Below, in pieces: positions 1,812 through 30,831 of a stretch of DNA of 32,000 nt; positions within the stretch are counted from its first letter, which is position 1, and each line of letters opens with the position of its first letter. The position numbers were made by a program, and so were the translations under genes. The notes beneath the pieces were generated by a model. It was not told the DNA's origin, did not search any database, and was given only the letters and a program-made list of their open reading frames with translations. The stretch covers positions 840,001 to 872,000 of the forward strand of contig NC_008698.1 in assembly GCF_000015225.1 (NCBI RefSeq), in the 5' to 3' direction. The stretch is from Thermofilum pendens Hrk 5 (GTDB taxonomy: Archaea > Thermoproteota > Thermoprotei > Thermofilales > Thermofilaceae).

Positions 1812-1904
1812 GCCCCGGTAGCTCAGTTGGAAGAGCGCCGCTCTGGTAACTAGCCCTGGCTGGAAAGGCGGAGGTCCCGGGTTCAATCCCCGGCCGGGGC
1901 TCCA
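1812..1904 (+). tRNA. tRNA-Thr (anticodon GGU), intron-containing, CCA encoded
   Basis: Hand-folded cloverleaf:
- acceptor GCCCCGG/CCGGGGC
- U8 A9
- D arm GCTC-AGTTGGAA-GAGC
- anticodon stem CCGCT/GGCGG
- loop CT-GGT-A, then the intron, then A38
- variable loop AGGTC
- T arm CCGGG-TTCAATC-CCCGG
- discriminator U73
- CCA at 1902-1904
The mature length is 76 nt. Confidence 0.9.
1849..1865 (+). other. tRNA intron (17 nt) at the canonical 37/38 position
   Basis: The sequence actagccctggctggaa interrupts the anticodon loop between A37 (1848) and A38 (1866). Removing it restores a 7-nt loop and a 5-bp stem. Confidence 0.8.
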
Positions 1905-2011: not shown

Positions 2012-3928
<1,917 letters not shown>

Positions 3929-3945
3929 CTACCCGGGAAAACCAT

Positions 3946-5562
3946 TCACGAGTTTGTTTCCTCTAGCTTGAAGAGCAGGTGGACCAGTTTCTCTATGTCC
4001 CAGGGCGGCGGGGTGGGGGTAGCCTCTCCCAGCGAGGATATCTCCGCGAAGAAAGCCTCGGAAGCTGAGACCAGCCTCTCGTAGAGCGAGTAGTACGAAT
4101 CGTAGATCGCGCTCTCTCTGGGATCCGGCTTTATCCTAGCCTTCTCCCTGAAGAACTTTTTCGCGGCCTCGTCGTGCGAGGAGCTCAGCCCGAGCTTCAG
4201 GCTGGCGAGCATCGCGTCGCCAGCGAGGGCGGCGTCGAGGAGCTCCGGGAGGACTACCTCCATCTTCGTCACGTTAGCCTTTATCCTGGCCCACAGAGGG
4301 GACTTCGCCCCACCACCCATCAGTATGAGCTCTCCGGGCTTCACGCCGACTTCCGCGAACACCTCTAGGATCTTCCTGATCTCGTAGGCTATTCCCTCCA
4401 TCATAGCCCTAAATATGTGCGCCCTTGTATGGTAGACTGTCAAGCCGAATATCACTCCGCGCGCGTAGGGGTTCCACCTGGGGGAACGGGCGCCGGAGAA
4501 GAAGGGTAGCACTATCAGCCCGTTCGAGCCTGGAGGGACGTAGGCAGCCTCCATGTCCAGATACTCGTAAGCCCTTCTGCGCGTCGAGCTAGCTAACAGC
4601 TGGACACCGTCTGCCACTTGGTCCCTGAACCACCTCAGGATGGCGCCCGCAGTGCTCATACCAGCCTCGACGACCCACCTGCCCCTGATCGGGGCGGCGC
4701 CCACCGAGAACCTCATCTTCTCGTCGAGGAGCGGCGAGTCCACCATGGTCGCGGTGGTAGACCCAGTACCCGTCGACTCCTCCACCCTCCTGGAGTCGAA
4801 TATCCCGGCCCCGAGAACTTCGGCCTGCCTATCCCCCATACCGGCGAGCACCTGGACGCTCCTCGGCAACCCTAAAAGCCTGGAAGCCTCCTCCGAGAGC
4901 GTCCCGACAACCTCGTCGCTGTAGCGCGACTCGGGGAAGAGCCCCGCGTACTCCGAGAGCCCTAGCTCTTCGAAGAGCTCACGGTCCCACTCGAGCTTAA
5001 CGATGTTGAACAGCATCGTACGCGACGCCACCGTGTGGTCCGTCACAGCTACACCGGTAAGCCTGTACACAACGTAGTCCTTCGGCTGGAGGCCGAGCCT
5101 AGCTCTTCTAAGCACCTCCGGCTCGTTCTCCTTGTACCAGAGAAGCTTCGTCGCTGTAAACGTAGCGTCCACGACGAGCCCGGTCTTCCTGTAGATCTCG
5201 GCGGGGTCGACCCTGCTCTTTATCCTCTCCGCCTGCGGGGAGCTACGCCTATCCATCCAGATAGGCACGCGCCCGAGGCTCCTACCCTCGCTGTCCACCA
5301 AGGCGAGAGTCTCCCTCTGGCTACTGACGCATATGCCGGCAACCCTGCTGGGGTCGACGCCTGCCTTCTTTAATACGTTCCTAGCAACCTCCACGGAAGT
5401 CCTCCACCAGTCGTCTGGATCCTGCTCCGCCCAGCCGGGCCTCGGGTAGTAGGTCGGGTACTCTTTCCCGTCTAGTGCGAGGAGCGAGCCGTTCGAATGG
5501 AAGAGCCCAGCCTTCACAGTAGTGGTGCCGATATCTATCGAGAGTAAAAGATCCCCGCTCAT
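3946..5562 (-). CDS. FGGY-family carbohydrate kinase (xylulokinase/glycerol-kinase-like)
   Basis: 538 aa. It has the N-terminal sugar-kinase phosphate-1 motif LLSIDIGTTTVKAG, then WMDRRS, and the C-terminal GGGAKSPLW motif. A TATA-like TATTTATTT sits about 24 nt upstream of the ATG. Confidence 0.85.
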   Translation of the reverse strand: MSGDLLLSIDIGTTTVKAGLFHSNGSLLALDGKEYPTYYPRPGWAEQDPDDWWRTSVEVARNVLKKAGVDPSRVAGICVSSQRETLALVDSEGRSLGRVPIWMDRRSSPQAERIKSRVDPAEIYRKTGLVVDATFTATKLLWYKENEPEVLRRARLGLQPKDYVVYRLTGVAVTDHTVASRTMLFNIVKLEWDRELFEELGLSEYAGLFPESRYSDEVVGTLSEEASRLLGLPRSVQVLAGMGDRQAEVLGAGIFDSRRVEESTGTGSTTATMVDSPLLDEKMRFSVGAAPIRGRWVVEAGMSTAGAILRWFRDQVADGVQLLASSTRRRAYEYLDMEAAYVPPGSNGLIVLPFFSGARSPRWNPYARGVIFGLTVYHTRAHIFRAMMEGIAYEIRKILEVFAEVGVKPGELILMGGGAKSPLWARIKANVTKMEVVLPELLDAALAGDAMLASLKLGLSSSHDEAAKKFFREKARIKPDPRESAIYDSYYSLYERLVSASEAFFAEISSLGEATPTPPPWDIEKLVHLLFKLEETNS

Positions 5563-7761: not shown

Positions 7762-8289
7762 CTAGTACTCGGGGGTCTTCACCCTCTCGGAGAGGTAGAT
7801 CTTTCTCACCCTCTCGGGCGCGCCTATCCTCTCGAGGTACTCGGCTACCCCCGGGGGTACCAGCTCCCTCCACTCGCCGCCGCTGGCCATAAGCTCCCTG
7901 ACAACCCTGCCCTGCAACCTGTCTCTCTCCCACAGCGGTAGCTCTAGCACCTCGTACCCCCTCTCCCTGGCGAGCAACTTCACAAACTCGTTCCCGGTAG
8001 CCACGAACTCGAAGGAGGGAACCCTGCTCGCCACGTAGCTGAGCCACAGGCTGTTGTCCGGCACGTTGTCGAGGGGGACAACGAAGAGCCTACCCCACTC
8101 CTCCCTGAACGCCGCCCTGAGCATCTCGATCCTCTCCCCAGCCGTGAAGGGGTTCTCCGGGGTATAGCTGTACTGTGCTGCTGTCACCCCGACTATGACC
8201 TCGTCAACCCTCTCGAGGAGCCATCTAACAGCCTTCACGTGTCCAAGGTGCACAGGCTGAAACCTACCAGGGTAGAAGGCCCGTCGCAT
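7762..8289 (-). CDS. nicotinamide-nucleotide adenylyltransferase (archaeal NMNAT)
   Basis: 175 aa. It has the nucleotidyltransferase motif GRFQPVHLGH (HxGH type). The size and the following ...NPFTAGERIEML... segment are typical of archaeal NMNAT. Confidence 0.9.
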   Translation of the reverse strand: MRRAFYPGRFQPVHLGHVKAVRWLLERVDEVIVGVTAAQYSYTPENPFTAGERIEMLRAAFREEWGRLFVVPLDNVPDNSLWLSYVASRVPSFEFVATGNEFVKLLARERGYEVLELPLWERDRLQGRVVRELMASGGEWRELVPPGVAEYLERIGAPERVRKIYLSERVKTPEY

Positions 8290-8321
8290 ACACTTATTAC
8301 CGCGCCCCCTTTTAAAAACAT

Positions 8322-8963
8322 GTGGGAAGAGTAGCAGGTATCGACGAGGCCGGTAGAGGGCCCATGCTGGGCCCCATGGTGGTGGCGATCGTCGTGTGCC
8401 CGGAGGAGAAGGTACCGTTGCTCAGGAACATGGGGGTCAGGGATTCAAAGGCGCTAAGCCCCAGGAGGAGGCTCCTCTTAAGCAGGGCTATACCCAGCGT
8501 TGGGTGTAGCGTTAAGGTCAGGGTGGTCGAGCCCCAAGAGATAGACTGCGCTGTTCGCGGAGAGTGCTACGAGAACCTTAACCACCTGGAAGCCGCCGTG
8601 TTCGCGCAGCTAATAAACGAGGTCCTCTCGGAGGGGGAGCTGGAGGTGGTGTACATGGATAGCCCCGACCCCGTCCCCTCCAGGTTTGAGGAGAGGGTTC
8701 GAGCGTTACTCAAGGGGCAAGTGAGGATTGTGGCGGAGAACGGGGCGGACGAAAAGTACACCATAGTGGGTGCCGCTTCGATAGTAGCCAAGGAGACCCG
8801 CGACGAGATAATAAACGCTCTCAAAAAGACTTACGGAGACTTCGGATCCGGGTACCCCAGCGACCCCAGGACTCTGAGGTTTGCGGAGGAGTGGGTGAGG
8901 AAACACGGGGAGCCCCCGCCTATAGCCAGGAAGGAGTGGGCGACCTGGAAGAGGTTGCGGTAA
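8322..8963 (+). CDS. rnhB: ribonuclease HII
   Basis: 213 aa with a GTG start. It has the motifs GIDEAGRGPMLGPMVVA, DSK and GAASIVAK, and the GSGYPSDP signature. Confidence 0.92.
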   Translation: MGRVAGIDEAGRGPMLGPMVVAIVVCPEEKVPLLRNMGVRDSKALSPRRRLLLSRAIPSVGCSVKVRVVEPQEIDCAVRGECYENLNHLEAAVFAQLINEVLSEGELEVVYMDSPDPVPSRFEERVRALLKGQVRIVAENGADEKYTIVGAASIVAKETRDEIINALKKTYGDFGSGYPSDPRTLRFAEEWVRKHGEPPPIARKEWATWKRLR

Positions 8964-8996
8964 AGCATATACGCTTATCGGGGGAGTACTACCCTA

Positions 8997-9350
8997 ATGT
9001 CGCAAGACGTTATAGAGTTCGAGCTTGAAGAGGAAGCGCTTTGCGAGGCGCTGGCCAGGCTAGGCGCCGAGGAGGTCGTGGTGACGATGGGCGAAGACAT
9101 CCTGTTTAGGTACCCTCGGGACGCCGACGTCTCGCAAATCCTCTCCCAGGTAAGATCCACCTTATCCATTCTGAGCGACGCGGACCCCTTCCTCGAGCTA
9201 CGCTTCCAGGATAGGGCTATCTTCGTGCTCAGAGTAGACGACTACGTCGCCGTGGCGAGTGGGCGCTTCCAGGAGGGGTCGGCGGAGGACGCTAGGCTCC
9301 TGCTGGAGCTACTCGTGAACAGAGCTCGCGGAGAGCTGGAACACTACTAG
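8997..9350 (+). CDS. hypothetical small protein, possibly Roadblock/LC7 (MglB)-like
   Basis: 117 aa and acidic. Alternating hydrophobic strands and helices (AIFVLRVDDYVAVASGRF...ARLLLELLVNRAR) resemble the Roadblock fold. This is an assignment by eye only. Confidence 0.45.
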   Translation: MSQDVIEFELEEEALCEALARLGAEEVVVTMGEDILFRYPRDADVSQILSQVRSTLSILSDADPFLELRFQDRAIFVLRVDDYVAVASGRFQEGSAEDARLLLELLVNRARGELEHY

Positions 9351-9509
9351 CCGCACGGGCGGTCAGAAGCGACGGTGTACGGTCACCTAAGCCCCTCTTT
9401 TAACCCTCATCATCCCTAGAGGAAAATACGCTTGCATCGTTGAATGCTTTTCGCCGTAGGAAAGCTTGCGCGCGTTAAGGTAAAATAGCCGAAAGGTGGG
9501 AGTAAAGCC

Positions 9510-10469
9510 GTGAAGTACGCCGTAGCAGTGGATATAGGCGCTACGCAGACCCGCGTAGCCCTCGGGAACGACGAGGGGGAGATTCTAGAGCTCCACGTCT
9601 TCAAGACGTCTTCCTTCCCCGGGCCCGACGAGTACCTGCGCCACATAGCCGGCTTGGCTTTAAGCCTAGAGAAAAAGCACGGCGTGGAAGTAGAGGGTAT
9701 AGGGGTGGGATCTCCGGGCCCCCTCGACATGAAGAAGGGGGAGGTACTCAAATCCGTGAACATGCCTTTCGATAGGCTACCCGTAGTCTCCGCCCTGAAG
9801 TCCCTGACGGGGAAGAAAGTGGCTTTTGCGAACGACGCGGTGACGGCGGCGGTTGGGGAGAAGTACTGGGGCGCGGGGAGGGGGTTGGAGAACCTGGTCT
9901 ACGTCACTATAAGCACGGGGATAGGCGCTGGGATCTACGTCGACGGGGAGCTCCTCCTCGGCAAGCACGGGAACGCCCACGAAGTAGGCCACGTCGTCGT
10001 CGACTCGGGGGAAGAGATGACGTGTGGTTGCGGCAAGAAGGGACACTGGGAGGCCTACTGCTCCGGGTCCGGCATACCCAGGTACGCGAAGTTCCTGGCG
10101 GCCAGAAACCCCGAGCTCTGGGAGAAGAGCCCCCTCAAGTCCAGGGAGCCCCTCACGGCTAAAGACGTATTCGACGCGTTCCGGGAGGGCGACGCGCTGG
10201 CAAGGCTTGTTATGGAGAGAGTTAGGAAGTTCAACGCGTACGGGTTCGCGGTGCTCGTCAACGTGTACGACCCCGAGATAATCACAGTGGGTGGATCGGT
10301 CGCCCTGAACAACCCGGACGTCCTGCTCGCCGGGCTGAAGGAGGAGGTCGAGAAGTACGCTTTAAACGTGGTTCCTGAGATCAGGCTGACCCCGCTCGGA
10401 GACAAGATAGGGGTTCTGGGAGCGCTGGCGCTGGGCCTCGGCCTCGAAAAGAAGGTCCCCCTCGTTTAA
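9510..10469 (+). CDS. ROK-family glucokinase/hexokinase
   Basis: 319 aa with a GTG start preceded by AGGTGGGAG. It has the ATP-binding VAVDIGATQTRVAL motif, the ROK signature region, and the Cys motif CGCGKKGHWEAYCSG. Confidence 0.85.
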   Translation: MKYAVAVDIGATQTRVALGNDEGEILELHVFKTSSFPGPDEYLRHIAGLALSLEKKHGVEVEGIGVGSPGPLDMKKGEVLKSVNMPFDRLPVVSALKSLTGKKVAFANDAVTAAVGEKYWGAGRGLENLVYVTISTGIGAGIYVDGELLLGKHGNAHEVGHVVVDSGEEMTCGCGKKGHWEAYCSGSGIPRYAKFLAARNPELWEKSPLKSREPLTAKDVFDAFREGDALARLVMERVRKFNAYGFAVLVNVYDPEIITVGGSVALNNPDVLLAGLKEEVEKYALNVVPEIRLTPLGDKIGVLGALALGLGLEKKVPLV

Positions 10470-23149: not shown

Positions 23150-23713
23150 ATGCGTGTATACGTGGTAACCGGGAATGTGCACAAGGTAGCGGAGCTCTCC
23201 CTAGCGCTTAAGCCCTTCGGCGTCGAGCTGGAGCCCCTCCGCGCAGAGAAGCTCGAAGTACAGTCCGAGAGCCTCGAGAAGATAGCCCTCGTAGCGGCGG
23301 AGCACCTGCCGCCCCTCGACAAGCCGGCCATAGTCGAGGACGCGGGGCTCTTCGTGAAGGCTCTCAACGGCTTCCCCGGCCCCTATAGTAGCTACGCCTA
23401 CAAGACGATAGGCTGCAGGGGGTTGCTGAAGCTCATGGAGGGCGTCTCCGACAGGGAGGCAGTCTTCAGGTCCGTCATAGCCCTCAGAATGCCGGACGGC
23501 TCGATACACCTCTTTAAAGGCGAGGCGGCGGGCGTGATAACAGAGGAGGAGAGGGGCACTGGGGGCTTCGGCTTCGACCCCGTGTTCCGGCCGCGCGGCT
23601 CCGAGAAGACATTCGCCGAGATGACGACCGAGGAGAAAAACCTGTACTCGCACAGGGCTAAAGCCGCGAGAAACCTGGCCGAGTGGCTAGTGAGGCGCGC
23701 TAAGGGTATTTGA
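23150..23713 (+). CDS. rdgB: non-canonical purine NTP pyrophosphatase (HAM1/RdgB ITPase)
   Basis: I prefer ATG 23150 (MRVYVVTGNVHKVAE...), with CTTTAA about 27 nt upstream. It has the motifs TGNxxKxxE, GFGFDPVF and SHRAKA. Confidence 0.9.
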   Translation: MRVYVVTGNVHKVAELSLALKPFGVELEPLRAEKLEVQSESLEKIALVAAEHLPPLDKPAIVEDAGLFVKALNGFPGPYSSYAYKTIGCRGLLKLMEGVSDREAVFRSVIALRMPDGSIHLFKGEAAGVITEEERGTGGFGFDPVFRPRGSEKTFAEMTTEEKNLYSHRAKAARNLAEWLVRRAKGI

Positions 23714-26078
23714 CGACAGTGGGCGAGTACTTCTCCAGGAACATCGGCGCGTAGATGTACGCGTTCTTCCACATGTCGCCGGAGCTTACGCTGAGAAAGC
23801 CGCTTCCCTGAGCCCTGTAGTCCAGGATCACTGTCCAGAAGGAAAGCGTGGCGCCGCTACCCACCGATCTGTATACGCTGTAGGGCCAGAAGTTGTACTC
23901 TATGGAGCCTTGCCGAGTACCCTCAGGAGCATAGGCTGTTGTGCAGAACCTTGCGTCGTTGCCGCCGATACTTCTGAGTAGCTGTACACCCGACTGGCTG
24001 AGCACGAGTGCCCTACCGAAGCTGTACACAGCGCTCCAGTGGGTGATGAGAAAGCCAGGGTCTGGTCTGCATAGCACTCCGCGGGGCGAACTTTTGACGT
24101 AGTCAAAGGAGAATTTATATGTTTGATTAGGTAGTCCTCCTTCGAAGCCCGCCGTTAGGTAGAGGAAGTAGTCGGCTATACCCTTCCCCATCTCGGTGGA
24201 CATCCAGTACCCGTAGCCGCTCTTCGAGTATTTCCAGTAGATGTAGGTGATGACGGGTATGTAGCGCGTACCGTTGACTACCTGCACTATGGATAACGTG
24301 TCGTAGTAGTCGCTCCGAACGTCGTTGCACGAGTAGTCGTAGACGTTGCCTACCAGCGTGGTGTTAAGCACGGCGAAAATCCTTATCGGCGCCCTGATCC
24401 ACGAGTACCTCAGGTAGTTGTAGTAGACGCTCCAAGTGCCGTAAGGCCTGTAGCGGCCGAGGTAGCTCCCGTAGACGTCGAAGGAGTGAAGGTTGTAGGG
24501 GCCCAGGGCGCTGTCCTTGTCGGGATCCCAGAGCACGAACGCGGCCACGCCGCAGTAGCTGACGTGGTCGTATCCGCGCGAGGACTGGTGCTCCAAGTCG
24601 ACGAACTCGACGTCGTATAGCGGGTGCCAAACGTCCTTGTGAGTACTGCTGTAGGTGTAATTTATGCTGGAGGGGTACGCCGCGGGCTCGGCGTCCAGGT
24701 CGTCTATCCACCAAAGCGCTACGACCTGCTTTCTTACGCTGGTGGTCGGGAACTTTACCTGGAAGACGAGCCTCGTGTTGTACTTAGCTCCCTTGACGAA
24801 GTCCATCTGGGGGTCGGAGAGCCCCACGGGGACGTTCACCCATATCCCGTGCCACTGCACGGTGGTCCAGTTCTCGTACTGGATAGGCCTCTCGACAAGC
24901 GTACGTAGCGTCCCGTCGAGCGTGGCGTTCACCCTGATCTGCTTGATCGGTACGTAGGGGAACGGGGGTAGCTTGAGCTGGGGGTCTACGGCGAGTTTCT
25001 GTCCGAGCCAGAACAGCGATAGGTTGGAGCTCATCTCCAGCGTGTACACCTCGTTGCTGATATCGCTGGGCCTCTTCAGGCTCTGAATTTTACCGTCCTT
25101 GTCGTAGTAGTAGAGCGTGTCCGGGGTGTTCCTTTGTATCGCGAAGACGAGGTAGCTGTACGCAGAGCCCTCCACGACTATCCCCCTCTCGTCGGATACT
25201 ACCACCATGACTGGAGCATATTGCTCCCCTGTCAAGGGGTCCTGGAAAACCTCTACTGCCGGCTCGAAGGTCACCGAGTAGTTCCCGTAGCCCTGGTACG
25301 TCACGTCCGTTATCTTTGCGAGCCTCCACTCACCCGTGTACCTGCCTTGGGAGTCCCTCTCGGGGTAGTAAACCCTCACCCACCCCTTCGAGAGGAGCCT
25401 GCCGTAGGGGTTCCCGGTTACCCTAGGGGGATCCGTAGAGTAGTCTATGTCCCCGTCGTACCTAACGTTTATGATTATCGTCGTGTTCCGCGGGGTCACC
25501 TGCACCGGCTTCCTGTAAACCGTCAGCGTTAAGCCGACGAAGACGTCGCTCTCCCAGTTGTAAAACCCAAGGTTCGTAACGTTAAGCTTCAGCCTCGCAT
25601 AAGCGTAGCTCCCCGAGGTCGGCAGGTACCAGTAGCCATTCATCAAGTTGTAGACGCTCCTGGAGCGGCCGAGCTCCTTCGAGAGGTCTAGGCGTAGCAC
25701 CTCGTAGCCCACCTGTACCCCGTACTCCGCGTAGGCCTTCGTCACCGACTGCCTCCAGTACTCCAGGTAGGTCTTCGCCGCCATCCTAGCGACCGTGAAG
25801 TTATGCCTGTTGTACATCGAGACGCCGTACTGGCTAAACCTCTCCGTTAGGTCGGAGAACTCGGAGTAGTTGAAGTAAGCCCTCGTCGCCACGGCTAGCA
25901 TCGCGGCGAGCGCCCTCTTGAAGTCGGCGGTTATGGCGGCTACAAGCTCTCTGACTACGGGGCTCCTCGTCCTCAGGAACAGCGAGTGCGCTTGGTACAC
26001 CGTTACGAGTATCGACATGAGCACGAGCCCTATAACCAGCACGGCGGCTACCACTATCTGGGCGCTCCTCCTGCGCAA
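23700..26078 (-). CDS. large (792 aa) exported protein with a pilin-like N-terminal anchor; putative pilus-associated adhesin or tip protein
   Basis: TTG start 6 nt after the preceding stop. The N-terminus is RRRSA|QIVVAAVLVIGLVLMSILVTV, followed by a helical segment and then a long Tyr/Trp-rich region. I counted 12 N-x-S/T sequons by hand. No enzymatic motif was recognised. Confidence 0.7.
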   Translation of the reverse strand: MRRRSAQIVVAAVLVIGLVLMSILVTVYQAHSLFLRTRSPVVRELVAAITADFKRALAAMLAVATRAYFNYSEFSDLTERFSQYGVSMYNRHNFTVARMAAKTYLEYWRQSVTKAYAEYGVQVGYEVLRLDLSKELGRSRSVYNLMNGYWYLPTSGSYAYARLKLNVTNLGFYNWESDVFVGLTLTVYRKPVQVTPRNTTIIINVRYDGDIDYSTDPPRVTGNPYGRLLSKGWVRVYYPERDSQGRYTGEWRLAKITDVTYQGYGNYSVTFEPAVEVFQDPLTGEQYAPVMVVVSDERGIVVEGSAYSYLVFAIQRNTPDTLYYYDKDGKIQSLKRPSDISNEVYTLEMSSNLSLFWLGQKLAVDPQLKLPPFPYVPIKQIRVNATLDGTLRTLVERPIQYENWTTVQWHGIWVNVPVGLSDPQMDFVKGAKYNTRLVFQVKFPTTSVRKQVVALWWIDDLDAEPAAYPSSINYTYSSTHKDVWHPLYDVEFVDLEHQSSRGYDHVSYCGVAAFVLWDPDKDSALGPYNLHSFDVYGSYLGRYRPYGTWSVYYNYLRYSWIRAPIRIFAVLNTTLVGNVYDYSCNDVRSDYYDTLSIVQVVNGTRYIPVITYIYWKYSKSGYGYWMSTEMGKGIADYFLYLTAGFEGGLPNQTYKFSFDYVKSSPRGVLCRPDPGFLITHWSAVYSFGRALVLSQSGVQLLRSIGGNDARFCTTAYAPEGTRQGSIEYNFWPYSVYRSVGSGATLSFWTVILDYRAQGSGFLSVSSGDMWKNAYIYAPMFLEKYSPTVVKYP

Positions 26079-26084
26079 GCCCGG

Positions 26085-26585
26085 TCACCCCGAGTACCCT
26101 ATCGTGAGGAGGATGTAGAGCGCAGTCCCCCTAACGCTGTCCGGGTCCCCCGTGCAGACGTACGTGTAGCTCACGGGCTCGGACTCCACGAGCCTAGTGG
26201 TGTTCGTGTCGTAGTTAGACGCACACCCAAGCCAAACAAGGCTAGTGTTGCCCGCCGAGACGTCGAAGTCCACCCTGTACACGTCCATCCTGAAGAGTAT
26301 GCCCGGCGGGAGGCTCGCAGTCGCCATCATCGCGAGGTCGTACAGAGTGCACCCCCCGCCCTGCGCCGCGGAGGGGTTCAGGTTGGCAAGGGTTTTCTCG
26401 AAGACACCGTTATCAGCCATGTTGTTTAAAAGGTTGTACGCAAGCCTCCTCAGATCGCTTGTCTCCCGCACATAAACGCTTCGCAGAGGCCTCGCGAAGG
26501 ACATCACGAGGAGTATAATCGCTACGACCATGAACGTAGCTAGGACAGCCTCAATTATCCTCACCTGACCCCTTCTACGCGCCAC
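26085..26585 (-). CDS. type IV pilin-like protein (166 aa)
   Basis: I prefer GTG 26585, which lies 10 nt after the upstream stop, over ATG 26678, which would overlap the upstream gene by 83 nt. The N-terminus is ARRRG|QVRIIEAVLATFMVVAIILLVMSF. It has 2 sequons and 3 Cys. Confidence 0.65.
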   Translation of the reverse strand: MARRRGQVRIIEAVLATFMVVAIILLVMSFARPLRSVYVRETSDLRRLAYNLLNNMADNGVFEKTLANLNPSAAQGGGCTLYDLAMMATASLPPGILFRMDVYRVDFDVSAGNTSLVWLGCASNYDTNTTRLVESEPVSYTYVCTGDPDSVRGTALYILLTIGYSG

Positions 26586-26595
26586 ACCGCGCCAC

Positions 26596-27831
26596 CTACG
26601 GGAACCCCTCGACCCTCCTCCATATCGTGAGCTCGACGACGTAGGGGTAGCTGTATATCGTGCATATCCTTGGACCAAGCGTCACGGAGTTCGCTGGCTG
26701 AGCTTTCGAGCCACCGTAAGAGATGTCTATGCTCGGGATCCTGTTCACCACGATTACGACGGGGCTCCCCCTGAACTGGGCGAAGACGAAGATGTGGCTC
26801 GAGAGGGGCTCGACATACTTAACGTAGCCCACGAGGTACCACTGCTTCGCTGACGGGAGAACCTTTCCAGCGTTGTTGCAGAGAGGGTCGTCGTTGCGGA
26901 AGTTACCTGTCGAGTCCCTGCACCACACCACGGTCGTAAAGTTCAGGAGGTTCTGGTACTCTGGTACTGCTTGGAGAAGTTCGTCCTTCACGTGAACTGC
27001 TCCAGAAGTCTTTCCAACCTCTATTGTTCTATCTACGAATATGTACTTCCCGATGATATAGCCCTCGACGGGCACCCCCCTCTGAGCTGTCGGCGCATAG
27101 CCAGCGACGCTGACGAAGCCCTGCCACTCCGCCCTCAGTATCAGGAAGGCGAAGAACCACCTGTCTGTCCTCTGTTTGTTAAAGTAGTTGCTCAATTCGG
27201 ATCTATAGTCAAGCGTACAGGTTCCCAGAGGTCCTGTGAGATTGCTCTTAGCGAATACTTGCTTTTTTTCGACTTCTCCATTGCCAGGATTCACCCTAAC
27301 TATCACGTACATACCCGTCACGTTTGCGTTCGGAATCCCCAGCCCGTAGTAGTTGGTCACGTTGACCTGAAAGATGGACGAGAAGTTCCAGTTACCGAAC
27401 TGCCTGTAAGCCACGGGCTTAACGCTTACTACTAGCATGGGCCTCATCCGGAGCCTGAAGCCGTAGTTCTCGCTTAGCCCAAGTAGCTGCGCGAGCCTGG
27501 AGGCGTTGAGGAGGAGGGGGTTCGGGAGCGTGCTCAGGTTCGCGAGCCGCATCACCTTGTCAGGGTCCACGACGTACGGCGTCCTCGTGCCAGCGAGCGC
27601 TAGCCCGAAGTCCGTCAGCGTGTCCGGGGTTACCGAGATATTCGTCCCCCAGTCCGCCGGGTAGCCCGGGGTAAGCACGATCTTATCCATAACCCTCTCC
27701 GCCACTGTGAATAGCTGTTCCTCGTACACCGTGCCCAGGGTGTTCATAGAGGTTGACGCCATGCCGTACGCTACCGCTATGAGCAGTACGATGAGCACCC
27801 CCAGGGCGAGGTACTCGAGCGTGGCCTCCAT
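26596..27831 (-). CDS. pilin-like exported protein (411 aa)
   Basis: The N-terminus is MEA|TLEYLALGVLIVLLIAVAYGMA, with a very short leader, a Glu early in the mature part and a roughly 20-residue hydrophobic helix. I counted 8 sequons by hand. It has its own TATA-like TTTATTAA at 27864-27871. Confidence 0.65.
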   Translation of the reverse strand: MEATLEYLALGVLIVLLIAVAYGMASTSMNTLGTVYEEQLFTVAERVMDKIVLTPGYPADWGTNISVTPDTLTDFGLALAGTRTPYVVDPDKVMRLANLSTLPNPLLLNASRLAQLLGLSENYGFRLRMRPMLVVSVKPVAYRQFGNWNFSSIFQVNVTNYYGLGIPNANVTGMYVIVRVNPGNGEVEKKQVFAKSNLTGPLGTCTLDYRSELSNYFNKQRTDRWFFAFLILRAEWQGFVSVAGYAPTAQRGVPVEGYIIGKYIFVDRTIEVGKTSGAVHVKDELLQAVPEYQNLLNFTTVVWCRDSTGNFRNDDPLCNNAGKVLPSAKQWYLVGYVKYVEPLSSHIFVFAQFRGSPVVIVVNRIPSIDISYGGSKAQPANSVTLGPRICTIYSYPYVVELTIWRRVEGFP

Positions 27832-27895: not shown

Positions 27896-28381
27896 TTAAG
27901 GCGTCTGGATCTTCGCAAACCCGACGTAGATGCTGTTTCCATCCCTGAAGGCCACTATAGCGGGCTTGTAGCCGGGTGGTAGCGGTAATAGTATTGTGTC
28001 TGAAACGGTTAAGCCGCCCACCTCCCTGGATCCCTTCACGGCGTGTACGGGGCTCTGCCCGAAGTTGGGCGTTACGACGACTCTTACCTGCTGGTATATC
28101 TGTAGCCTAGCCGTGACGTTGAGCACGTTCTCGCTCGTCTCCCCTATGCTCAGCGAGTAGGGCTGCCCTGCGAGCGTATCGGGCACGGTGAGGTACATGT
28201 AGCTCAGGTTGCTCCCACCCAGCGTGTACACCGAGATCAGCTCGACGACCTCCCTGGCGGCGCTCTCCGCCACCTCGGATAGCATGACGTTCTGAGACTG
28301 CATCTGGTTCAGGAAGAGGAGGAAGCTGAACGCCGCGAGGATAATTATAGCCACTTGTAGCAACGTAACCGTGCCTATCAC
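27896..28381 (-). CDS. pilin-like small exported protein (161 aa)
   Basis: GTG start. The N-terminus is MIG|TVTLLQVAIIILAAFSFLLFL, followed by a beta-rich domain with 2 sequons. Confidence 0.6.
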   Translation of the reverse strand: MIGTVTLLQVAIIILAAFSFLLFLNQMQSQNVMLSEVAESAAREVVELISVYTLGGSNLSYMYLTVPDTLAGQPYSLSIGETSENVLNVTARLQIYQQVRVVVTPNFGQSPVHAVKGSREVGGLTVSDTILLPLPPGYKPAIVAFRDGNSIYVGFAKIQTP

Positions 28382-28411: not shown

Positions 28412-29251
28412 TCACCTCGTGCTAACCTCCACCGTAGCAACCTTGACTACTACAACGAGGCCGTCTGCCGGCGCTCCCTCGGGCGCGCGAGGGAGCTTGA
28501 CTTGTTGTTGGAGGGTGCCCTGCTCCGCGAGTACGGCGAGGTCGCTGGACCCGTCGAACTTGTACTCTGTAACGTTTAGCCCCACGTTTCTGAAGACCAC
28601 GGGTATGGTTCCGGAGCCGCCCAGGTAGCCCGGCTTCAGCACGACTACGTGTATTGTGAAGAAGTTGTACCTTTTAACGCTACCCCCCACAGTCACGTTT
28701 ATCTGCCCGTTGTAGAAAACCCTCACGCGCGTGTACATGTACGCGCACGCCCTCTGCGAGAAGTTCTCGTAGACCACGACTATGGGTTCACCGCTCTCGA
28801 CGATAAGCTTTTTGAGCTCCCCTTGAAGGTCTCCCGACTCGGGGTACAGGAGGCGCGGAGAGGTCGTGACCAGGGGTCCCCCGCACACCTTCAGCCTGAG
28901 CGGGTAGCCGCTGAACACCTGCTGGATTCCTCCTCCCTGGACACCCCAAACCCACACGGAGAGCGGGGAGGATGCCTTCTCGAAGGATATCCCCGTGCTC
29001 GTAAGGCTGAACCTCACGTAGCGGGATCCCCCGGTGCCGAAGGCTACTTGTTCGAGCGCTGTTGCCGCGTAGGTTAACTGCTCCTTCGCGTACTCGTACT
29101 CCATTGTCTGCCTGTTCATGTCTATGAGGGACGTCGAGTAGTAAAGGGCTACGGAGACTATGGTCAGCATTATGCTCGTGAGTATAACCGCTGCTATGAC
29201 GGGCGATATAGCCTTCCTCATAGACCCCTGCATAGATAAAGGCTGAGGCAT
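28412..29251 (-). CDS. archaeal type IV pilin-like protein (class III signal peptide, PF07790-type N-terminus)
   Basis: The N-terminus ...MRKA|ISPVIAAVILTSIMLTIVSVAL matches the archaeal pilin N-terminal consensus ([KR]-[GA]-[IV]-SPVI-[AG]-x-[VI]-[LI]-L). Three in-frame ATGs (29251, 29233, 29221) precede the motif, so the true start is ambiguous. Confidence 0.75.
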   Translation of the reverse strand: MPQPLSMQGSMRKAISPVIAAVILTSIMLTIVSVALYYSTSLIDMNRQTMEYEYAKEQLTYAATALEQVAFGTGGSRYVRFSLTSTGISFEKASSPLSVWVWGVQGGGIQQVFSGYPLRLKVCGGPLVTTSPRLLYPESGDLQGELKKLIVESGEPIVVVYENFSQRACAYMYTRVRVFYNGQINVTVGGSVKRYNFFTIHVVVLKPGYLGGSGTIPVVFRNVGLNVTEYKFDGSSDLAVLAEQGTLQQQVKLPRAPEGAPADGLVVVVKVATVEVSTR

Positions 29252-29269: not shown

Positions 29270-30808
29270 CTATTCTCTTCTCCTGCGGATCACCACCACT
29301 ACTATCACTATGGCTACCACTGCTACTATCGCGACGAGGATTATGGGCTGGAAGAGGGCGCCGGGCGCCTCCTGCGCGCCAGCGGTAGCCCCGGGCACCG
29401 TGTAGGTGACCGTCTGGGTCTTCGAGCCCCAGGGGGAGTTGTAGGTGGCTACTACCTGGTAGCTACCGGGGTCGAGGCTTAAGGGCAGGGTCGCGGTACC
29501 CTCGACTGCGGACGCCCCGTCTATGCTCGTAGGGGTCTTGCTGAAGGACGCGTCCGGGAGGGAGGTCGCGAAGACCACCGCTCCACCGCTACCAACGACT
29601 TTCACATCCACGTTGGAGTTCTGGTAGAGGGGTGATACCCTCACGACTAGTGTGCCGGCGGTAACCTGGAGGGATACCTTGGGCTCAACTCTCACGGACT
29701 TCACGGTGAACCTGGAGGTCACCGGCGAGTACTTGTTCGAGTCAACCTTGACCGCTACCTGTGCCTCCCCCTCGGGGAACGCCGCGTATATCGTAGGGCT
29801 GAAGCTACCGGAGTAGACGGGTTGCCCTCCCCAGTAGACGGTCACCGTTGCCTGCTCGTCCTTCTCTACGGGCGGCGTTAACGCTATGCTTATCGGGACG
29901 TAGGCGCCCGCGACCACCGTGCTCGGCGCCGAGACCTTAGCCTCCCTTACGGGCTTAATGGATAGGCTCAGCGGGTATACGTAGGTGTACGTGTAGCCCC
30001 ACGGCGTCGTCGCGGCGACTTTTACCTGGACGCTGTACTGGCTCTTCACAAACGGCCCTAGCTTGCTGACGTTCATGAGGAACTCCAGCGTCCTCCTCTC
30101 GTTGACGTTCATGCGCCCCGTTGTGAGAAGGTAGCACTGGACGGGCGCCCCCTCTACCTGGGCTTGGGCGTTCTCGATGTACCCCTCGCCCTGCACCCAT
30201 ATGTCGACGAAGAACCTGACGACGTAGGGCTCGTAGTCTATCTTCAGGTAGGGCTCGACGTACACGTACGTCTTCGGCGCTATAACCCTCACGGGGATAC
30301 TCGTGAACGCCGAGTAGTAGCCGGACTCCTGTATCGGGGAGCCTCCCTTCGGGACCGCCTCGTAGTAGTACGAGAGGTCTATCCTGAGGCTAGTGTCCTT
30401 CACGTCCCCGGGCGCCATCTGCGACGCGAAGAACCTCGGGGTAAGCTTTACGGAGAGGTACGCTTGCCGGCCGAGCGAGAGCGGTATGGGGGTGTCGGGG
30501 ACGTACTCGTAGACGCTCGTATCCACCGTGAACCTAAGCGCCTTGAGGTAGAACACCTTGAGGTCTCCCTCCACCTCGGTTATCGTGACGGTCACCGGTA
30601 CCTCGTACTCGTTAGTAGCCACGAGCTCCGACGGAACCTTCACCGATACCTTTAACCATATGGGGCCTATCTTTACGAGGGACTCCTTCTGGGTCTGCTG
30701 CGAGAAGGCAGGCTGAGGAGCGGCGAAGACTACTAAAAGGAGGAGCACCACCAGGATGAAGCGCGCGGAGGATACTTGCAAGCTCTCTCTCCGTTTACTC
30801 CTAACCAT
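29270..30808 (-). CDS. secreted multi-beta-domain surface protein with a C-terminal TM anchor (512 aa from ATG 30808)
   Basis: It has a Sec-type signal (MVRSKRRESLQVSSARFILVVLLLLVVFAAPQPAFS|QQ). Repetitive beta-strand-like segments (KVSVKV, VTVTITEV, VQVKVAATT, VSLQVTAGTLVVRV) follow. The C-terminus is ILVAIVAVVAIVIVVVVIRRRRE. I prefer ATG 30808 because the TATA box TTTATAG at 30832-30838 is 24 nt upstream of it. Confidence 0.7.
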   Translation of the reverse strand: MVRSKRRESLQVSSARFILVVLLLLVVFAAPQPAFSQQTQKESLVKIGPIWLKVSVKVPSELVATNEYEVPVTVTITEVEGDLKVFYLKALRFTVDTSVYEYVPDTPIPLSLGRQAYLSVKLTPRFFASQMAPGDVKDTSLRIDLSYYYEAVPKGGSPIQESGYYSAFTSIPVRVIAPKTYVYVEPYLKIDYEPYVVRFFVDIWVQGEGYIENAQAQVEGAPVQCYLLTTGRMNVNERRTLEFLMNVSKLGPFVKSQYSVQVKVAATTPWGYTYTYVYPLSLSIKPVREAKVSAPSTVVAGAYVPISIALTPPVEKDEQATVTVYWGGQPVYSGSFSPTIYAAFPEGEAQVAVKVDSNKYSPVTSRFTVKSVRVEPKVSLQVTAGTLVVRVSPLYQNSNVDVKVVGSGGAVVFATSLPDASFSKTPTSIDGASAVEGTATLPLSLDPGSYQVVATYNSPWGSKTQTVTYTVPGATAGAQEAPGALFQPIILVAIVAVVAIVIVVVVIRRRRE

Positions 30809-30831
30809 ACACAACACTCCTCCCATCCGGC

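What the first reader, a model, noticed from the sequence alone, without database searches (positions are those of the whole stretch)
23700..26078. 792-aa pilin-anchored giant protein as a candidate adhesin or tip subunit
**Seen.** The gene has a TTG start 6 nt after the previous stop, which suggests translational coupling. The N-terminus is RRRSA|QIVVAAVLVIGLVLMSILVTV. A helix-like stretch follows (VRELVAAITADFKRALAAMLAVATRAY...), then about 650 residues very rich in Tyr and Trp. By hand count there are 12 N-x-S/T sequons: NYS, NFT, NVT, NTT, NYS, NLS, NAT, NWT, NYT, NTT, NGT and NQT. I recognised no catalytic or nucleotide-binding motif. Its 3' end overlaps the convergent ITPase gene by 14 nt.

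**Established.** Type IV pilins share an N-terminal hydrophobic alpha-1 helix that buries in the filament core. Large C-terminal domains are tolerated mainly at filament tips.

**Inference.** A pilin helix fused to a roughly 750-aa glycosylated domain is best explained as a low-copy tip-located adhesin or cap, functionally analogous to PilY1, GspK or PilC-type adhesins.
Basis: partly seen in the sequence, partly recalled or inferred. Interest (0 to 1): 0.7.

Follow-up and report, generated by a model that had tools for sequence, protein, structure and literature searches.

The report
Modular pilin-like protein of archaeal pilus
This Thermofilum pendens gene encodes the last of five conserved pilin-like proteins of an archaeal type IV pilus system: a pilin-style carrier module joined to a large sugar-coated beta-rich domain, most likely a surface-exposed binding subunit, though its position at the pilus tip and what it binds are untested.

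Summary
The window is Thermofilum pendens.

The protein has no Pfam or NCBIfam family. About 55 close homologues occur in Thermofilaceae and other Thermoprotei, and a profile search finds 317 relatives.

It is the fifth gene of a conserved five-gene cassette (about 270, 165, 400, 165 aa, then a variable last gene). In at least 14 related loci the cassette adjoins a type IV pilus ATPase and/or a TadC/FlaJ platform gene. Four of these loci (L009, L011, L012, L033) also carry a UpsA-like 150-aa pilin. T. pendens keeps the ATPase and a TadC-family gene elsewhere on its chromosome.

The architecture is not a helix plus 750 aa. It is a class III signal ([KR][KR][GA]|Q), a conserved ~300-aa carrier module that also exists alone as ~260-aa proteins, and a ~490-aa all-beta extension. 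The extension resembles galactose-mutarotase-like supersandwich regions of glycosidases only at fold level.

In other lineages the same carrier bears CBM96+VWA, InlB repeats, Ig domains or DUF2341. This supports an archaeal modular minor pilin that displays a binding domain. Tip location, signal cleavage and ligand remain inferred. It is a new variant of a known kind, of moderate interest.

The parts
23700..26078 (-). g5: 792-aa modular pilin-like protein (the finding); fifth and last gene of the cassette
   Evidence: ORF with TTG start. It is 100% identical to a T. pendens hypothetical protein, and 55 homologues were found. AlphaFold model has pLDDT 90 and pTM 0.85.
26061..26078 (-). Predicted class III signal leader MRRRSA (residues 1-6), with predicted cleavage A6|Q7
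   Evidence: Family consensus is [KR][KR]-[GA]|Q in 157 of 197 relatives; the exceptions are fragments or mis-called starts. Q7 is conserved in at least 90%. Cleavage itself is not shown.
25995..26060 (-). Uncharged, largely hydrophobic alpha1-N segment (residues 7-28, QIVVAAVLVIGLVLMSILVTVY) with no acidic residue
   Evidence: Read directly from the sequence. It lies within predicted helix 2-69.
25179..26078 (-). Conserved carrier module (residues 1-300): long helix 2-69/71-80, helix 94-115, then beta-sandwich strands. It holds three near-universal sequons (N70, N93, N166).
   Evidence: Many 230-290-aa proteins match only profile positions ~4-295; alignment A3. Separate model has pLDDT 91. 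Sequon conservation is 34/35.
23718..24965 (-). Conserved C-terminal all-beta domain (residues 372-787), with fold-level resemblance to galactose-mutarotase-like supersandwich regions
   Evidence: BLASTP block 372-787 aligns to 711-1128 of the 1133-aa L003 homologue. Foldseek PDB hits are GH38, PL26, LacZ, GH36 and mutarotase, E down to 1e-8, TM about 0.3, 6-9% identity.
26085..26091 (-). SD-like GGGGTGA overlapping the stop codon of g4, ending 6 nt upstream of the g5 TTG start
   Evidence: Sequence read; upstream context.
26085..26585 (-). g4: ~166-aa pilin-like protein, N-terminus (V)ARRRGQ|VRIIEAV. The listed ORF extends to 26678 (197 aa), but the family N-termini and an AGGTGG motif favour the GTG at 26585.
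   Evidence: Positional orthologues in L003, L005, L006 and L007 have E 1e-7 to 1e-16. Weak DUF7288 hit, E 0.047.
26596..27831 (-). g3: 411-aa cassette protein starting MEATLEY plus a hydrophobic helix with no charged leader; sequon-enriched (8 observed vs 3.1 expected)
   Evidence: Orthologues have E 1e-22 to 1e-30.
27896..28381 (-). g2: 161-aa cassette protein with a hydrophobic N-terminus (MIGTVTLLQVAIIIL)
   Evidence: Weak DUF7266 hit. It is 50% identical to the core of the 759-aa L033 g2.
28412..29251 (-). g1: 279-aa pilin-like protein with an archaellin/pilin-type signal RKA|ISPVIAAVIL
   Evidence: TIGR02537 E 0.0034, below its cut-off. Orthologues have E 1e-5 to 1e-21.
29270..30826 (-). 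518-aa secreted protein with an N-terminal signal and a C-terminal TM helix plus RRRRE tail, immediately upstream of g1 on the same strand (S-layer-like or anchored surface protein)
   Evidence: Homologues sit at the same position only in the closest Thermofilaceae loci L009-L011.

Best explanation
**What it is.** The gene encodes a modular, pilin-like accessory subunit of a type IV pilus-like (type-4-filament) machine of Thermofilaceae and related Thermoproteota. It has three parts:
- A class III signal: leader MRRRSA, predicted cut before Q7, then a 22-residue uncharged helix.
- A conserved ~300-aa carrier module made of a very long alpha1 helix, a helical hairpin and beta-sandwich. This module also exists alone as the ~260-aa fifth gene of the same cassette in other archaea.
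- A ~490-aa heavily N-glycosylated all-beta extension that includes a galactose-mutarotase-like supersandwich region.

**Proposed mechanism.**
- The protein inserts N-in/C-out into the membrane.
- The prepilin peptidase removes the leader.
- Together with the four co-encoded pilin-like proteins (g1-g4), it forms a complex on the TadC platform that primes filament growth. That complex ends up at the distal end of a filament built of a small UpsA-like pilin.
- Its bulk lets it sit only at the end, where the beta-domain is displayed to bind a ligand, most plausibly a carbohydrate.

**Shown.** Signal motif, domain architecture, cassette conservation, linkage to ATPase/TadC/pilin in relatives, conserved sequons, and variable adhesin-type payloads on the same carrier.

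**Inferred.** Cleavage, complex formation, tip location, ligand.
For: - **Class III signal.** It is found across the family. Position -1 is G in 139 and A in 18 sequences; -2 is R or K in 123 of 157; Q occupies +1; about 20 uncharged residues follow.
- **Long N-terminal helix.** Helix 2-69 is predicted at high confidence.
- **Conserved cassette.** All five cassette proteins are positional orthologues across loci. The order g1-g5 is kept in every locus with enough flank.
- **Linkage to the machine.** ATPase and TadC are adjacent in L003, L005, L009, L011, L012, L016, L017, L019, L022, L025, L026, L029, L032 and L033.
- **Candidate major pilin.** A ~150-aa ORF beside the ATPase passes the archaeal pilin N-terminal model (27.6 bits against a cut-off of 20) and resembles UpsA (2e-12).
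- **Machine retained in T. pendens.** It keeps the orthologous ATPase (66% identity) and a TadC-family (T2SSF) gene elsewhere on the chromosome.
- **Carrier also occurs alone.** It is found as ~260-aa proteins in the same fifth position.
- **Carrier bears binding domains elsewhere.** Examples are CBM96+VWA, DUF2341, InlB B-repeats (16 of 59), and Big_1, Big_3_5 and Invasin_D3.
- **Extracellular location.** Sequons number 12 against 4.2 expected, and five are conserved in 31-34 of 35.
- **C-terminal fold.** Matches are confined to carbohydrate-binding-type supersandwich regions.
- **Precedents.** Bacterial modular pilins are modelled as fitting only at the tip (PMC8179133, PMC9934059).
Against: - The protein matches no curated pilin model.
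- The carrier module has no significant structural neighbour among solved pilins or anything else in the PDB (best E 3e-3, TM below 0.2).
- T. pendens has Ser, not Lys/Arg, at -2 of the predicted cleavage site.
- The window itself has no ATPase, TadC or small pilin gene.
- g2 and g3 lack a recognisable cleavable leader, so part of the cassette may stay in the membrane.
- Fold similarity of the C-terminal part is weak (TM about 0.3, 6-9% identity) and no binding site was identified.
- No experiment on any family member was found in the searched literature.
Confidence: 0.6

Rival explanations
1. Base or envelope-anchored accessory complex. The N-terminal helix is an uncleaved signal anchor. The five proteins form a membrane-proximal collar or stator that couples the pilus machine to the S-layer, as FlaF/FlaG do for the archaellum. 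The glycan-binding-like C-terminal domain of g5 holds on to S-layer glycans rather than to external targets.
For: - g2 and g3 have hydrophobic N-termini without a cleavable leader.
- g1 weakly resembles the FlaF Ig-like domain (E 0.075).
- The helix is longer (about 70-80 residues) than a typical pilin alpha1.
- The carrier module has no structural match to filament-forming pilins.
- A co-oriented S-layer-like 518-aa protein lies directly upstream.
- The 2026 preprint suggests that some TFF accessory proteins prime the cell wall for filament passage.
Against: - Payloads on the same carriers vary greatly in size and kind: none, 500 aa, up to 1100 aa, VWA, CBM96, InlB repeats, invasin-like Ig domains.
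- The payload also moves between g1, g2, g4 and g5. This is typical of outward-facing binding proteins and hard to reconcile with a conserved structural contact to the cell's own S-layer.
- The near-invariant [GA]|Q junction implies selection on a cleavage site.
Confidence: 0.2
2. Substrate-capture or enzymatic surface module. The system is a short bindosome- or pseudopilus-like structure that holds carbohydrate-binding or carbohydrate-active proteins at the cell surface for nutrient scavenging. In this reading g5 is a glycan-capturing protein, or a lyase, hydrolase or epimerase, tethered by a class III signal.
For: - Best fold matches are to glycoside-hydrolase or lyase chains and to mutarotases (GH38, PL26, GH2, GH36, aldose epimerases).
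- The best NCBIfam hit of the linked platform protein is bindosome BasF (5e-23). The ATPase hits BasE at 1.6e-75, second to FlaI. All are below their cut-offs.
- A GH2 beta-mannosidase-like gene adjoins the locus in L033.
- The 2026 preprint proposes widespread class III-signal binding proteins that functionalise TFF machines for scavenging.
- T. pendens is known to scavenge nutrients from its environment (general knowledge).
Against: - The matched parts of those enzymes are, to my knowledge, their non-catalytic beta domains.
- No alpha/beta catalytic barrel is present in the model.
- No sequence-level match to any CAZyme or epimerase family was found.
- TM-scores are about 0.3.
- The protein does not have a periplasmic-binding-protein fold like known bindosome substrates.
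- Short forms of g5 lack the domain altogether, yet the cassette is kept.
Confidence: 0.12
3. Unrelated membrane-anchored surface glycoprotein. The pilin-like look of the N-terminus is coincidental, and the cluster in T. pendens has nothing to do with a pilus.
For: - The window contains no ATPase, platform or peptidase gene.
- No curated pilin family matches the protein.
Against: - The same five genes are contiguous with ATPase and TadC in at least 14 related loci, including close Thermofilaceae relatives at 67% identity.
- The signal motif is conserved across 157 relatives.
Confidence: 0.03

Closest known systems
Bacterial modular type IV pilins: Streptococcus sanguinis PilB (vWA module) and PilC (Ig + ConA-like lectin module) (PMC8179133, PMC9934059)
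   Same: Both have a class III signal and a pilin-type carrier with a bulky functional module grafted on C-terminally. Both are co-encoded with other minor pilins. The carrier is reused with many different effector modules. The bulk is predicted to allow only an end-of-filament position. PilC is a glycan-binding example.
   Different: There is no sequence or detectable structural homology. The carrier here is ~300 aa (long helix, helical hairpin and beta-sandwiches), not a small alpha/beta pilin domain. The system is archaeal, and the protein carries conserved N-glycosylation sequons. Function and location are untested.
GspK, and the GspH-I-J-K or FimU-PilV-W-X minor-pilin tip/priming complexes of bacterial T2SS and T4aP (as summarised in PMC9934059)
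   Same: A fixed set of several co-encoded minor pilin-like proteins sits next to the machine genes. The largest is encoded last. That subunit has no acidic residue in its N-terminal hydrophobic segment, as with the missing Glu5 of GspK.
   Different: There is no homology to T2SSK or other minor-pilin families. The cassette has five members rather than four. Two members (g2, g3) lack a typical leader. Lack of Glu5 is not diagnostic in archaea.
PilY1/PilC tip adhesins of bacterial T4aP
   Same: The proposed role is the same: a large binding protein presented at the pilus end by minor pilins, with variable N- or C-terminal effector modules.
   Different: PilY1 is not a pilin and is defined by a C-terminal beta-propeller. 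No such domain is present here. DUF2341, which Makarova et al. link to PilY-type adhesins, occurs in a distant relative (P0093) but not in this protein.
Predicted accessory 'adhesin or minor pilin' proteins of archaeal T4P loci (Makarova, Koonin & Albers 2016, PMC4858521; Sivabalasarma & Albers 2026 preprint, subsystem 4A)
   Same: The layout agrees: ATPase, platform, then accessory genes downstream; Thermoproteota and Bathyarchaeota; 'often an adhesin'. Makarova et al. note Thermofilum pilin loci without ATPase or TadC. [quoted passage not shown]
   Different: Those papers give one-line predictions only. I could not map their GI or arCOG identifiers to this gene. They describe neither the carrier-plus-payload architecture, nor the stand-alone form of the carrier, nor the payload swapping.
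Galactose-mutarotase-like beta-supersandwich domains (GH38 C-terminal region, LacZ domain 5, GH36 N-domain, aldose 1-epimerases)
   Same: These are the best Foldseek matches of the full model (E 1e-8 to 1e-4). All are large antiparallel beta structures associated with carbohydrate binding.
   Different: TM-scores are only about 0.2-0.3 and identity is 6-9%. No sequence-family match was found. The catalytic domains of those enzymes are absent.
Pfam DUF7261, and DUF7266 and DUF7288 for g2 and g4 (uncharacterised Pfam families; I recall them as haloarchaeal, not checked here)
   Same: Sub-threshold matches to the N-terminal ~80 residues occur in 13 of 59 divergent carriers (best E 4e-5). g2 and g4 match weakly. 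This hints that the cassette has distant relatives described under those DUF families.
   Different: All matches are below Pfam gathering scores. The window protein itself gives no hit. No publication on these DUFs was found.

Membership tests
Archaeal type IV pilin-like proteins (class III signal peptide proteins) | Short basic leader, Gly/Ala at -1, followed by ~20 hydrophobic residues | tested here: met
   The N-terminus is MRRRSA|Q plus 22 uncharged residues. The family consensus [KR][KR][GA]|Q is present in 157 of 197 relatives. Caveat: T. pendens has Ser at -2.
Archaeal type IV pilin-like proteins (class III signal peptide proteins) | Match to curated pilin N-terminal models (TIGR02537 arch_flag_Nterm, PF07790 Pilin_N) | tested here: not met
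   The 792-aa protein gives no hit at E <= 1. By contrast, the ~150-aa ORFs beside the ATPase in relatives pass TIGR02537.
Archaeal type IV pilin-like proteins (class III signal peptide proteins) | Pilin fold: protruding alpha1 helix packed on a beta-sheet, similar to solved pilins or archaellins | tested here: inconclusive
Archaeal type IV pilin-like proteins (class III signal peptide proteins) | Genomic linkage to a T4P ATPase and TadC/FlaJ platform | tested here: met
   Not met in the window itself. The cassette is contiguous with ATPase and/or TadC genes in at least 14 related loci. T. pendens has the orthologous ATPase and a TadC-family gene elsewhere.
Archaeal type IV pilin-like proteins (class III signal peptide proteins) | Leader cleaved by the prepilin peptidase, and subunit incorporated into a filament | not testable with these tools
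   This needs a biochemical cleavage assay, and mass spectrometry or microscopy of filaments.
Modular pilins (carrier pilin module + grafted effector module; Raynaud et al. 2021) | N-terminal carrier module that is a self-sufficient unit | tested here: met
   Proteins of 230-290 aa match only positions ~4-295 and occupy the same fifth cassette position.
Modular pilins (carrier pilin module + grafted effector module; Raynaud et al. 2021) | Extra module is a functional domain not specific to pilus biology | tested here: inconclusive
   In this protein there is only a fold-level resemblance to mutarotase-like supersandwich regions. In relatives the feature is clearly met: CBM96, VWA, InlB B-repeat, Big_1, Big_3_5, Invasin_D3 and DUF2341.
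GspK-type capping minor pilin / HIJK tip complex | Homology to GspK (T2SSK) or other HIJK minor pilins | tested here: not met
   There is no Pfam or NCBIfam hit and no structural hit.
GspK-type capping minor pilin / HIJK tip complex | Co-encoded set of several minor pilins, with the largest lacking the acidic residue at position 5 | tested here: met
   The five-gene cassette is conserved in order. Mature residues 1-21 of g5 contain no Asp or Glu. This is weak evidence, because archaeal pilins often lack Glu5.
PilY1/PilC adhesins | C-terminal beta-propeller (PilC/PilY1 domain); the protein is not a pilin | tested here: not met
   No such domain was found, and the protein has a pilin-type N-terminus.
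Galactose-mutarotase-like / GH38 C-terminal domain superfamily | Supersandwich fold similarity | tested here: inconclusive
   Foldseek gives E 1e-8 to 1e-4 with probability about 1.0, but TM is 0.16-0.32 and identity 6-9%.
Galactose-mutarotase-like / GH38 C-terminal domain superfamily | Sequence-family membership, or presence of the associated catalytic domain | tested here: not met
   There is no Pfam or NCBIfam hit and no PDB sequence-profile hit. The model has no alpha/beta barrel.
Archaeal TFF subsystem 4A (Makarova 2016; Sivabalasarma & Albers 2026) | Accessory genes directly downstream of the platform gene; Thermoproteota/Bathyarchaeota distribution | tested here: met
   The layout ATPase-TadC-g1..g5 is seen in L003, L012, L016, L017, L019, L025, L026 and L029.
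Archaeal TFF subsystem 4A (Makarova 2016; Sivabalasarma & Albers 2026) | ATPase falls in the 4A clade; proteins belong to the listed arCOGs | not testable with these tools
   No arCOG profiles or ATPase reference tree were available. The GI numbers in the supplements could not be mapped.
Pfam DUF7261 | Score above the gathering threshold (27 bits) | tested here: not met
   The window protein gives no hit. 13 of 59 divergent relatives hit below threshold, best E 4e-5.

The most novel reading that the evidence does not exclude
The five-gene cassette is the archaeal counterpart of the bacterial minor-pilin priming/tip complex, built from folds unrelated to known pilins. Any of its five subunits can serve as a carrier for swappable binding modules. 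In T. pendens, the g5 payload would be a tip lectin that recognises glycans on other cells or surfaces. One conceivable target is the S-layer glycans of the partner organisms on which this nutritionally dependent archaeon relies.
Probability: 0.2. Interest if true: 0.7.

Novelty: new variant of a known kind. Interest (0 to 1): 0.45.

Why it matters
- **The gap.** Archaeal type IV pili are abundant and diverse, especially in hyperthermophiles. How they recognise targets, and whether they have tip complexes like bacteria, is essentially unknown.
- **A defined starting point.** This locus offers a conserved five-protein accessory set and a ~300-aa carrier module absent from Pfam and the PDB. There is clear evidence that lineages swap binding domains on these carriers.
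- **If the tip-display model holds.** The bacterial 'carrier plus effector' principle of modular pilins would extend to Archaea. It would also give candidate receptor-binding proteins for attachment, cell-cell recognition or virus entry in Thermoproteota.
- **If the model fails.** The cassette is still an unannotated, conserved component of a widespread archaeal pilus subsystem and deserves a family definition.

Tried and rejected
- **Family scans.** Pfam and NCBIfam scans of the protein gave nothing above noise.
- **PDB sequence profile.** A profile of the family against all PDB sequences gave nothing.
- **Carrier fold search.** Foldseek of the carrier module alone against the PDB gave no significant match and no pilin.
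- **Viral fold search.** BFVD gave only weak phage tail-protein matches (TM about 0.2) and adds little.
- **C-terminal domain without the pilin N-terminus.** The candidates proved to be contig-edge truncations (P0141), a split gene inside a complete cassette (P0065), or visibly mis-called starts. This idea is rejected.
- **L033 g2 extension as the same payload.** The 759-aa g2 of L033 has no similarity beyond the N-terminal helix. Its core is a true g2 orthologue.
- **Mapping to arCOGs.** I could not link the gene to Makarova's arCOG14668 or arCOG10502 through the supplements. GI numbers could not be linked to sequences and the key table is truncated.
- **Literature dead ends.** No paper was found on DUF7261, DUF7266 or DUF7288. 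The PL26 structure paper was not in the library.
- **Cluster names.** Looking up source names for divergent relatives gave almost no taxonomy.

Full report
**Observation.** The ORF at 23700..26078 on the minus strand is real: 792 codons with a TTG start.
- The preceding gene ends with TGA at 26087-26085, and six bases separate it from the TTG.
- An SD-like GGGGTGA overlaps that stop codon, so translational coupling is plausible.
- The 3' end overlaps the convergent Ham1/ITPase ORF (Pfam Ham1, E 2e-49) by 14 nt.
Composition-preserving shuffles give 4.2 +/- 1.8 sequons, and none of 2000 reaches 12.
- Tyr (9.5%) and Trp (2.65%) are about 2-fold and 1.5-fold above 11 other genes of the window.
- No Pfam or NCBIfam family matches.

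**Origin and family.**
- The protein is 100% identical to a hypothetical protein of Thermofilum pendens.
- A word-indexed search finds 55 homologues, almost all from Thermofilaceae and other Thermoprotei, with one from Bathyarchaeota. None is annotated.
- An exhaustive profile search of 1.84 billion representatives finds 317 relatives at E <= 1e-3 and 55 at E <= 1e-30.
- Many of the weaker hits are proteins of 230-290 aa that match only positions ~4-295.
- The N-terminal third is therefore a self-standing module, and the remaining ~490 residues are a lineage-specific extension.
- Longer relatives (945-1180 aa) have a further ~400-aa insertion between the two conserved blocks, which are residues 1-329 and 372-787.

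**Signal.**
- Across the extended family, 157 of 197 proteins have [KR][KR]-[GA]|Q followed by about 20 uncharged residues.
- Position -1 is Gly in 139 and Ala in 18. Position -2 is Arg or Lys in 123.
- The exceptions are fragments or genes whose start was called inside the hydrophobic helix.
- Q7 is conserved in at least 90% of sequences in independently built alignments.
- This is the archaeal class III (prepilin) signal pattern.
- T. pendens deviates by having Ser at -2.
- The mature hydrophobic segment has no acidic residue.

**Structure.**
- AlphaFold2 with the 35-sequence family alignment gives a confident model, with mean pLDDT 90 and pTM 0.85. It has helices 2-69, 71-80 and 94-115, then almost exclusively beta-strands to the C-terminus.
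- Residues 1-300 modelled alone give the same result (pLDDT 91).
- Foldseek of the full model against the PDB returns these chains at E 1e-8 to 1e-4:
  - GH38 alpha-mannosidases
  - a PL26 lyase
  - LacZ
  - GH36 alpha-galactosidases
  - aldose 1-epimerases
- To my knowledge, what these share is the galactose-mutarotase-like beta-supersandwich, which is a non-catalytic carbohydrate-associated domain in the hydrolases.
- TM-scores are only 0.16-0.32 and identity 6-9%, so this is a fold-level lead and not a family assignment.
- The carrier module alone has no significant PDB neighbour (best E 3e-3, TM below 0.2), and no pilin or archaellin appears among the hits.
- The viral library gives only weak phage tail-protein matches.

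**Context, the decisive evidence.**
- In the window, the gene is the last of six co-oriented, tightly spaced genes:
  - a 518-aa secreted protein with a C-terminal anchor
  - g1, 279 aa, with the signal RKA|ISPVIAAVIL
  - g2, 161 aa
  - g3, 411 aa
  - g4, about 166 aa, with RRRGQ|VRIIEAV
  - g5, 792 aa
- The rest of the window is housekeeping, with no ATPase or platform gene.
- In relatives, the same five genes occur in the same order and are pairwise orthologous to the T. pendens genes (BLASTP E 1e-5 to 1e-30).
- They are contiguous with a T2SSE-family ATPase and a T2SSF/TadC-family platform gene. The layout is either ATPase-TadC-g1..g5 or g1..g5 followed by TadC and the ATPase. This holds in L003, L005, L009, L011, L012, L016, L017, L019, L022, L025, L026, L029, L032 and L033.
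- In L009, L011, L012 and L033, a ~150-aa ORF beside the ATPase or the cassette resembles UpsA. Three of the four (L009, L011, L012) pass the archaeal pilin N-terminal model. This ORF is the obvious candidate major pilin.
- T. pendens retains the orthologous ATPase (66% identity, the same divergence as g5) and a TadC-family (T2SSF) gene at about 1.41 Mb. Unrelated genes are interspersed there. In this genome the system is simply split.
- This fits the remark of Makarova et al. (2016) that Thermofilum has pilin loci without ATPase or TadC.

**Payload variability.**
- The ~260-aa short forms occupy the same fifth position (L006, L033).
- Other lineages attach other domains to the same carrier:
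  - CBM96 + VWA
  - DUF2341
  - InlB-type B-repeats, in 16 of 59 divergent members
  - Big_1, Big_3_5 and Invasin_D3
  - DUF7507 + Ig
- The extension is not tied to g5:
  - In L033, g2 is 759 aa while g5 is short. Its core is 50% identical to T. pendens g2, and its extension is unrelated to the g5 domain.
  - In L029, g1 is 604 aa.
  - In L010 and L013, g4 is 390 aa.
  - In L007, g4 carries VWA.
- The cassette thus behaves as a set of carriers for interchangeable, typically adhesive, modules.
- The T. pendens C-terminal domain was never found free of the carrier. Apparent exceptions are truncations or a split gene.

**Extracellular location.**
- Sequons at N70, N93, N166 and N384 are kept in 34 of 35 homologues, and N602 in 31 of 35.
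- g3 and g5 are the only proteins in the window significantly enriched in sequons.
- This fits N-glycosylated surface proteins.

**Interpretation.**
- The best-supported reading is an archaeal modular minor pilin. A class III signal and carrier module let the pilus machine handle the protein, and a large glycosylated beta-domain is displayed outside.
- By analogy with bacterial GspHIJK, with FimU-PilVWX-PilY1, and with S. sanguinis PilABC, the five proteins would form the priming complex that ends up at the filament tip. Bulky modular pilins in those systems fit only at the tip.
- The supersandwich-like fold and the CBM, VWA and InlB payloads of relatives point to ligand binding, probably of carbohydrate.
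- What is shown: motif, architecture, synteny, sequon conservation and payload swapping.
- What is inferred: cleavage, complex formation, tip position and ligand.

**Rivals.**
- **Base or S-layer-coupling complex (0.2).** This would be analogous to FlaF/FlaG. It is supported by leaderless g2 and g3, the weak FlaF-like hit of g1, and the lack of pilin-fold matches.
- **Bindosome-like capture or enzyme module (0.12).** It is supported by CAZyme-flavoured fold hits, sub-threshold BasE/BasF similarity of the machine and the hypothesis of the 2026 preprint.
- **Unrelated surface glycoprotein (0.03).** It is contradicted by the synteny.

**Comparison and novelty.**
- Large class III-signal 'adhesin or minor pilin' proteins in archaeal T4P loci were predicted before.
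- Modular pilins are established in bacteria.
- What is new here:
  - the definition of this carrier module, which is in no Pfam family and has no PDB neighbour
  - its stand-alone and fused forms
  - the conserved five-gene cassette and its payload swapping
  - the fold-level nature of the T. pendens payload
- I rate it a new variant of a known kind, of moderate interest.

Noticed in passing
window 26596-27831 (-), and orthologues in L003, L005, L006, L007: The g3 family starts directly with M-[HE]-x-x-L-[ED]-Y followed by a hydrophobic helix. It has no charged leader and no Gly/Ala cleavage site. This resembles the mature end of bacterial Flp/Tad pilins (G|xxxxEY), so it may be a leaderless pilin-like protein.
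   Followed up: partly
L003 1216-2606, L004 126-1516, L033 1118-4927: Genes for small GTPases (Arf/Ras/Roc-like or GPN-loop ATP_bind_1) and Roadblock/LC7 proteins lie directly upstream of the pilus ATPase or cassette in distant relatives. The pairing recalls the MglA/MglB polarity switch that controls bacterial type IV pili.
   Followed up: no
L033 5921-8200; L029 3550-5364; L010 8806-9978; L007 2066-3193: The large C-terminal extension is not tied to the fifth gene. In other lineages g2 (759 aa), g1 (604 aa) or g4 (390 aa, or 375 aa with VWA) carries it while g5 is short. The L033 g2 extension is unrelated to the T. pendens g5 domain.
   Followed up: partly
L005 15681-19202; L032 10150-13371; proteins P0207, P0229, P0237-P0240: The cassette-linked pilus ATPase carries an intein in several lineages (Pfam Intein_splicing; about 1140-1177 aa instead of about 670).
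   Followed up: no
L032 3938-7371: The fifth gene is split into two ORFs (631 + 456 aa) inside an otherwise intact cassette next to TadC and ATPase. This could be a pseudogene, a programmed split or an assembly error.
   Followed up: no
window 26085-26678 (-): The longest ORF for g4 (197 aa, TTG) overlaps g3 by 83 nt. Family N-termini and an AGGTGG motif favour a GTG start at 26585, giving (V)ARRRGQ|VRIIEAV and about 166 aa, 10 nt after the g3 stop.
   Followed up: partly
window 29270-30826 (-): A 518-aa protein has an N-terminal signal, a C-terminal TM helix and an RRRRE tail. It lies 18 nt upstream of g1 and is conserved at that position only in the closest Thermofilaceae (L009-L011). A TTTATA box ends 6 nt before the annotated ATG, so the real start may be the Met at codon 7.
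   Followed up: partly
L033 15361-17868: A GH2 beta-mannosidase-like gene directly follows the 152-aa pilin gene of the pilus locus in a Thermofilaceae MAG.
   Followed up: no
window 1812-1904 (+): ARAGORN calls a 93-nt tRNA with an undetermined anticodon. It is probably an intron-containing archaeal tRNA.
   Followed up: no
L027 (T. pendens chromosome ~1.408-1.426 Mb): In T. pendens, the cognate ATPase (8001-10016) and a T2SSF gene (2277-4091) are separated by about 4 kb of unrelated genes (an AAA_18 kinase-like gene, a 474-aa ORF, AdoMet decarboxylase and a 291-aa ORF). The pilus system is fragmented across the genome.
   Followed up: partly
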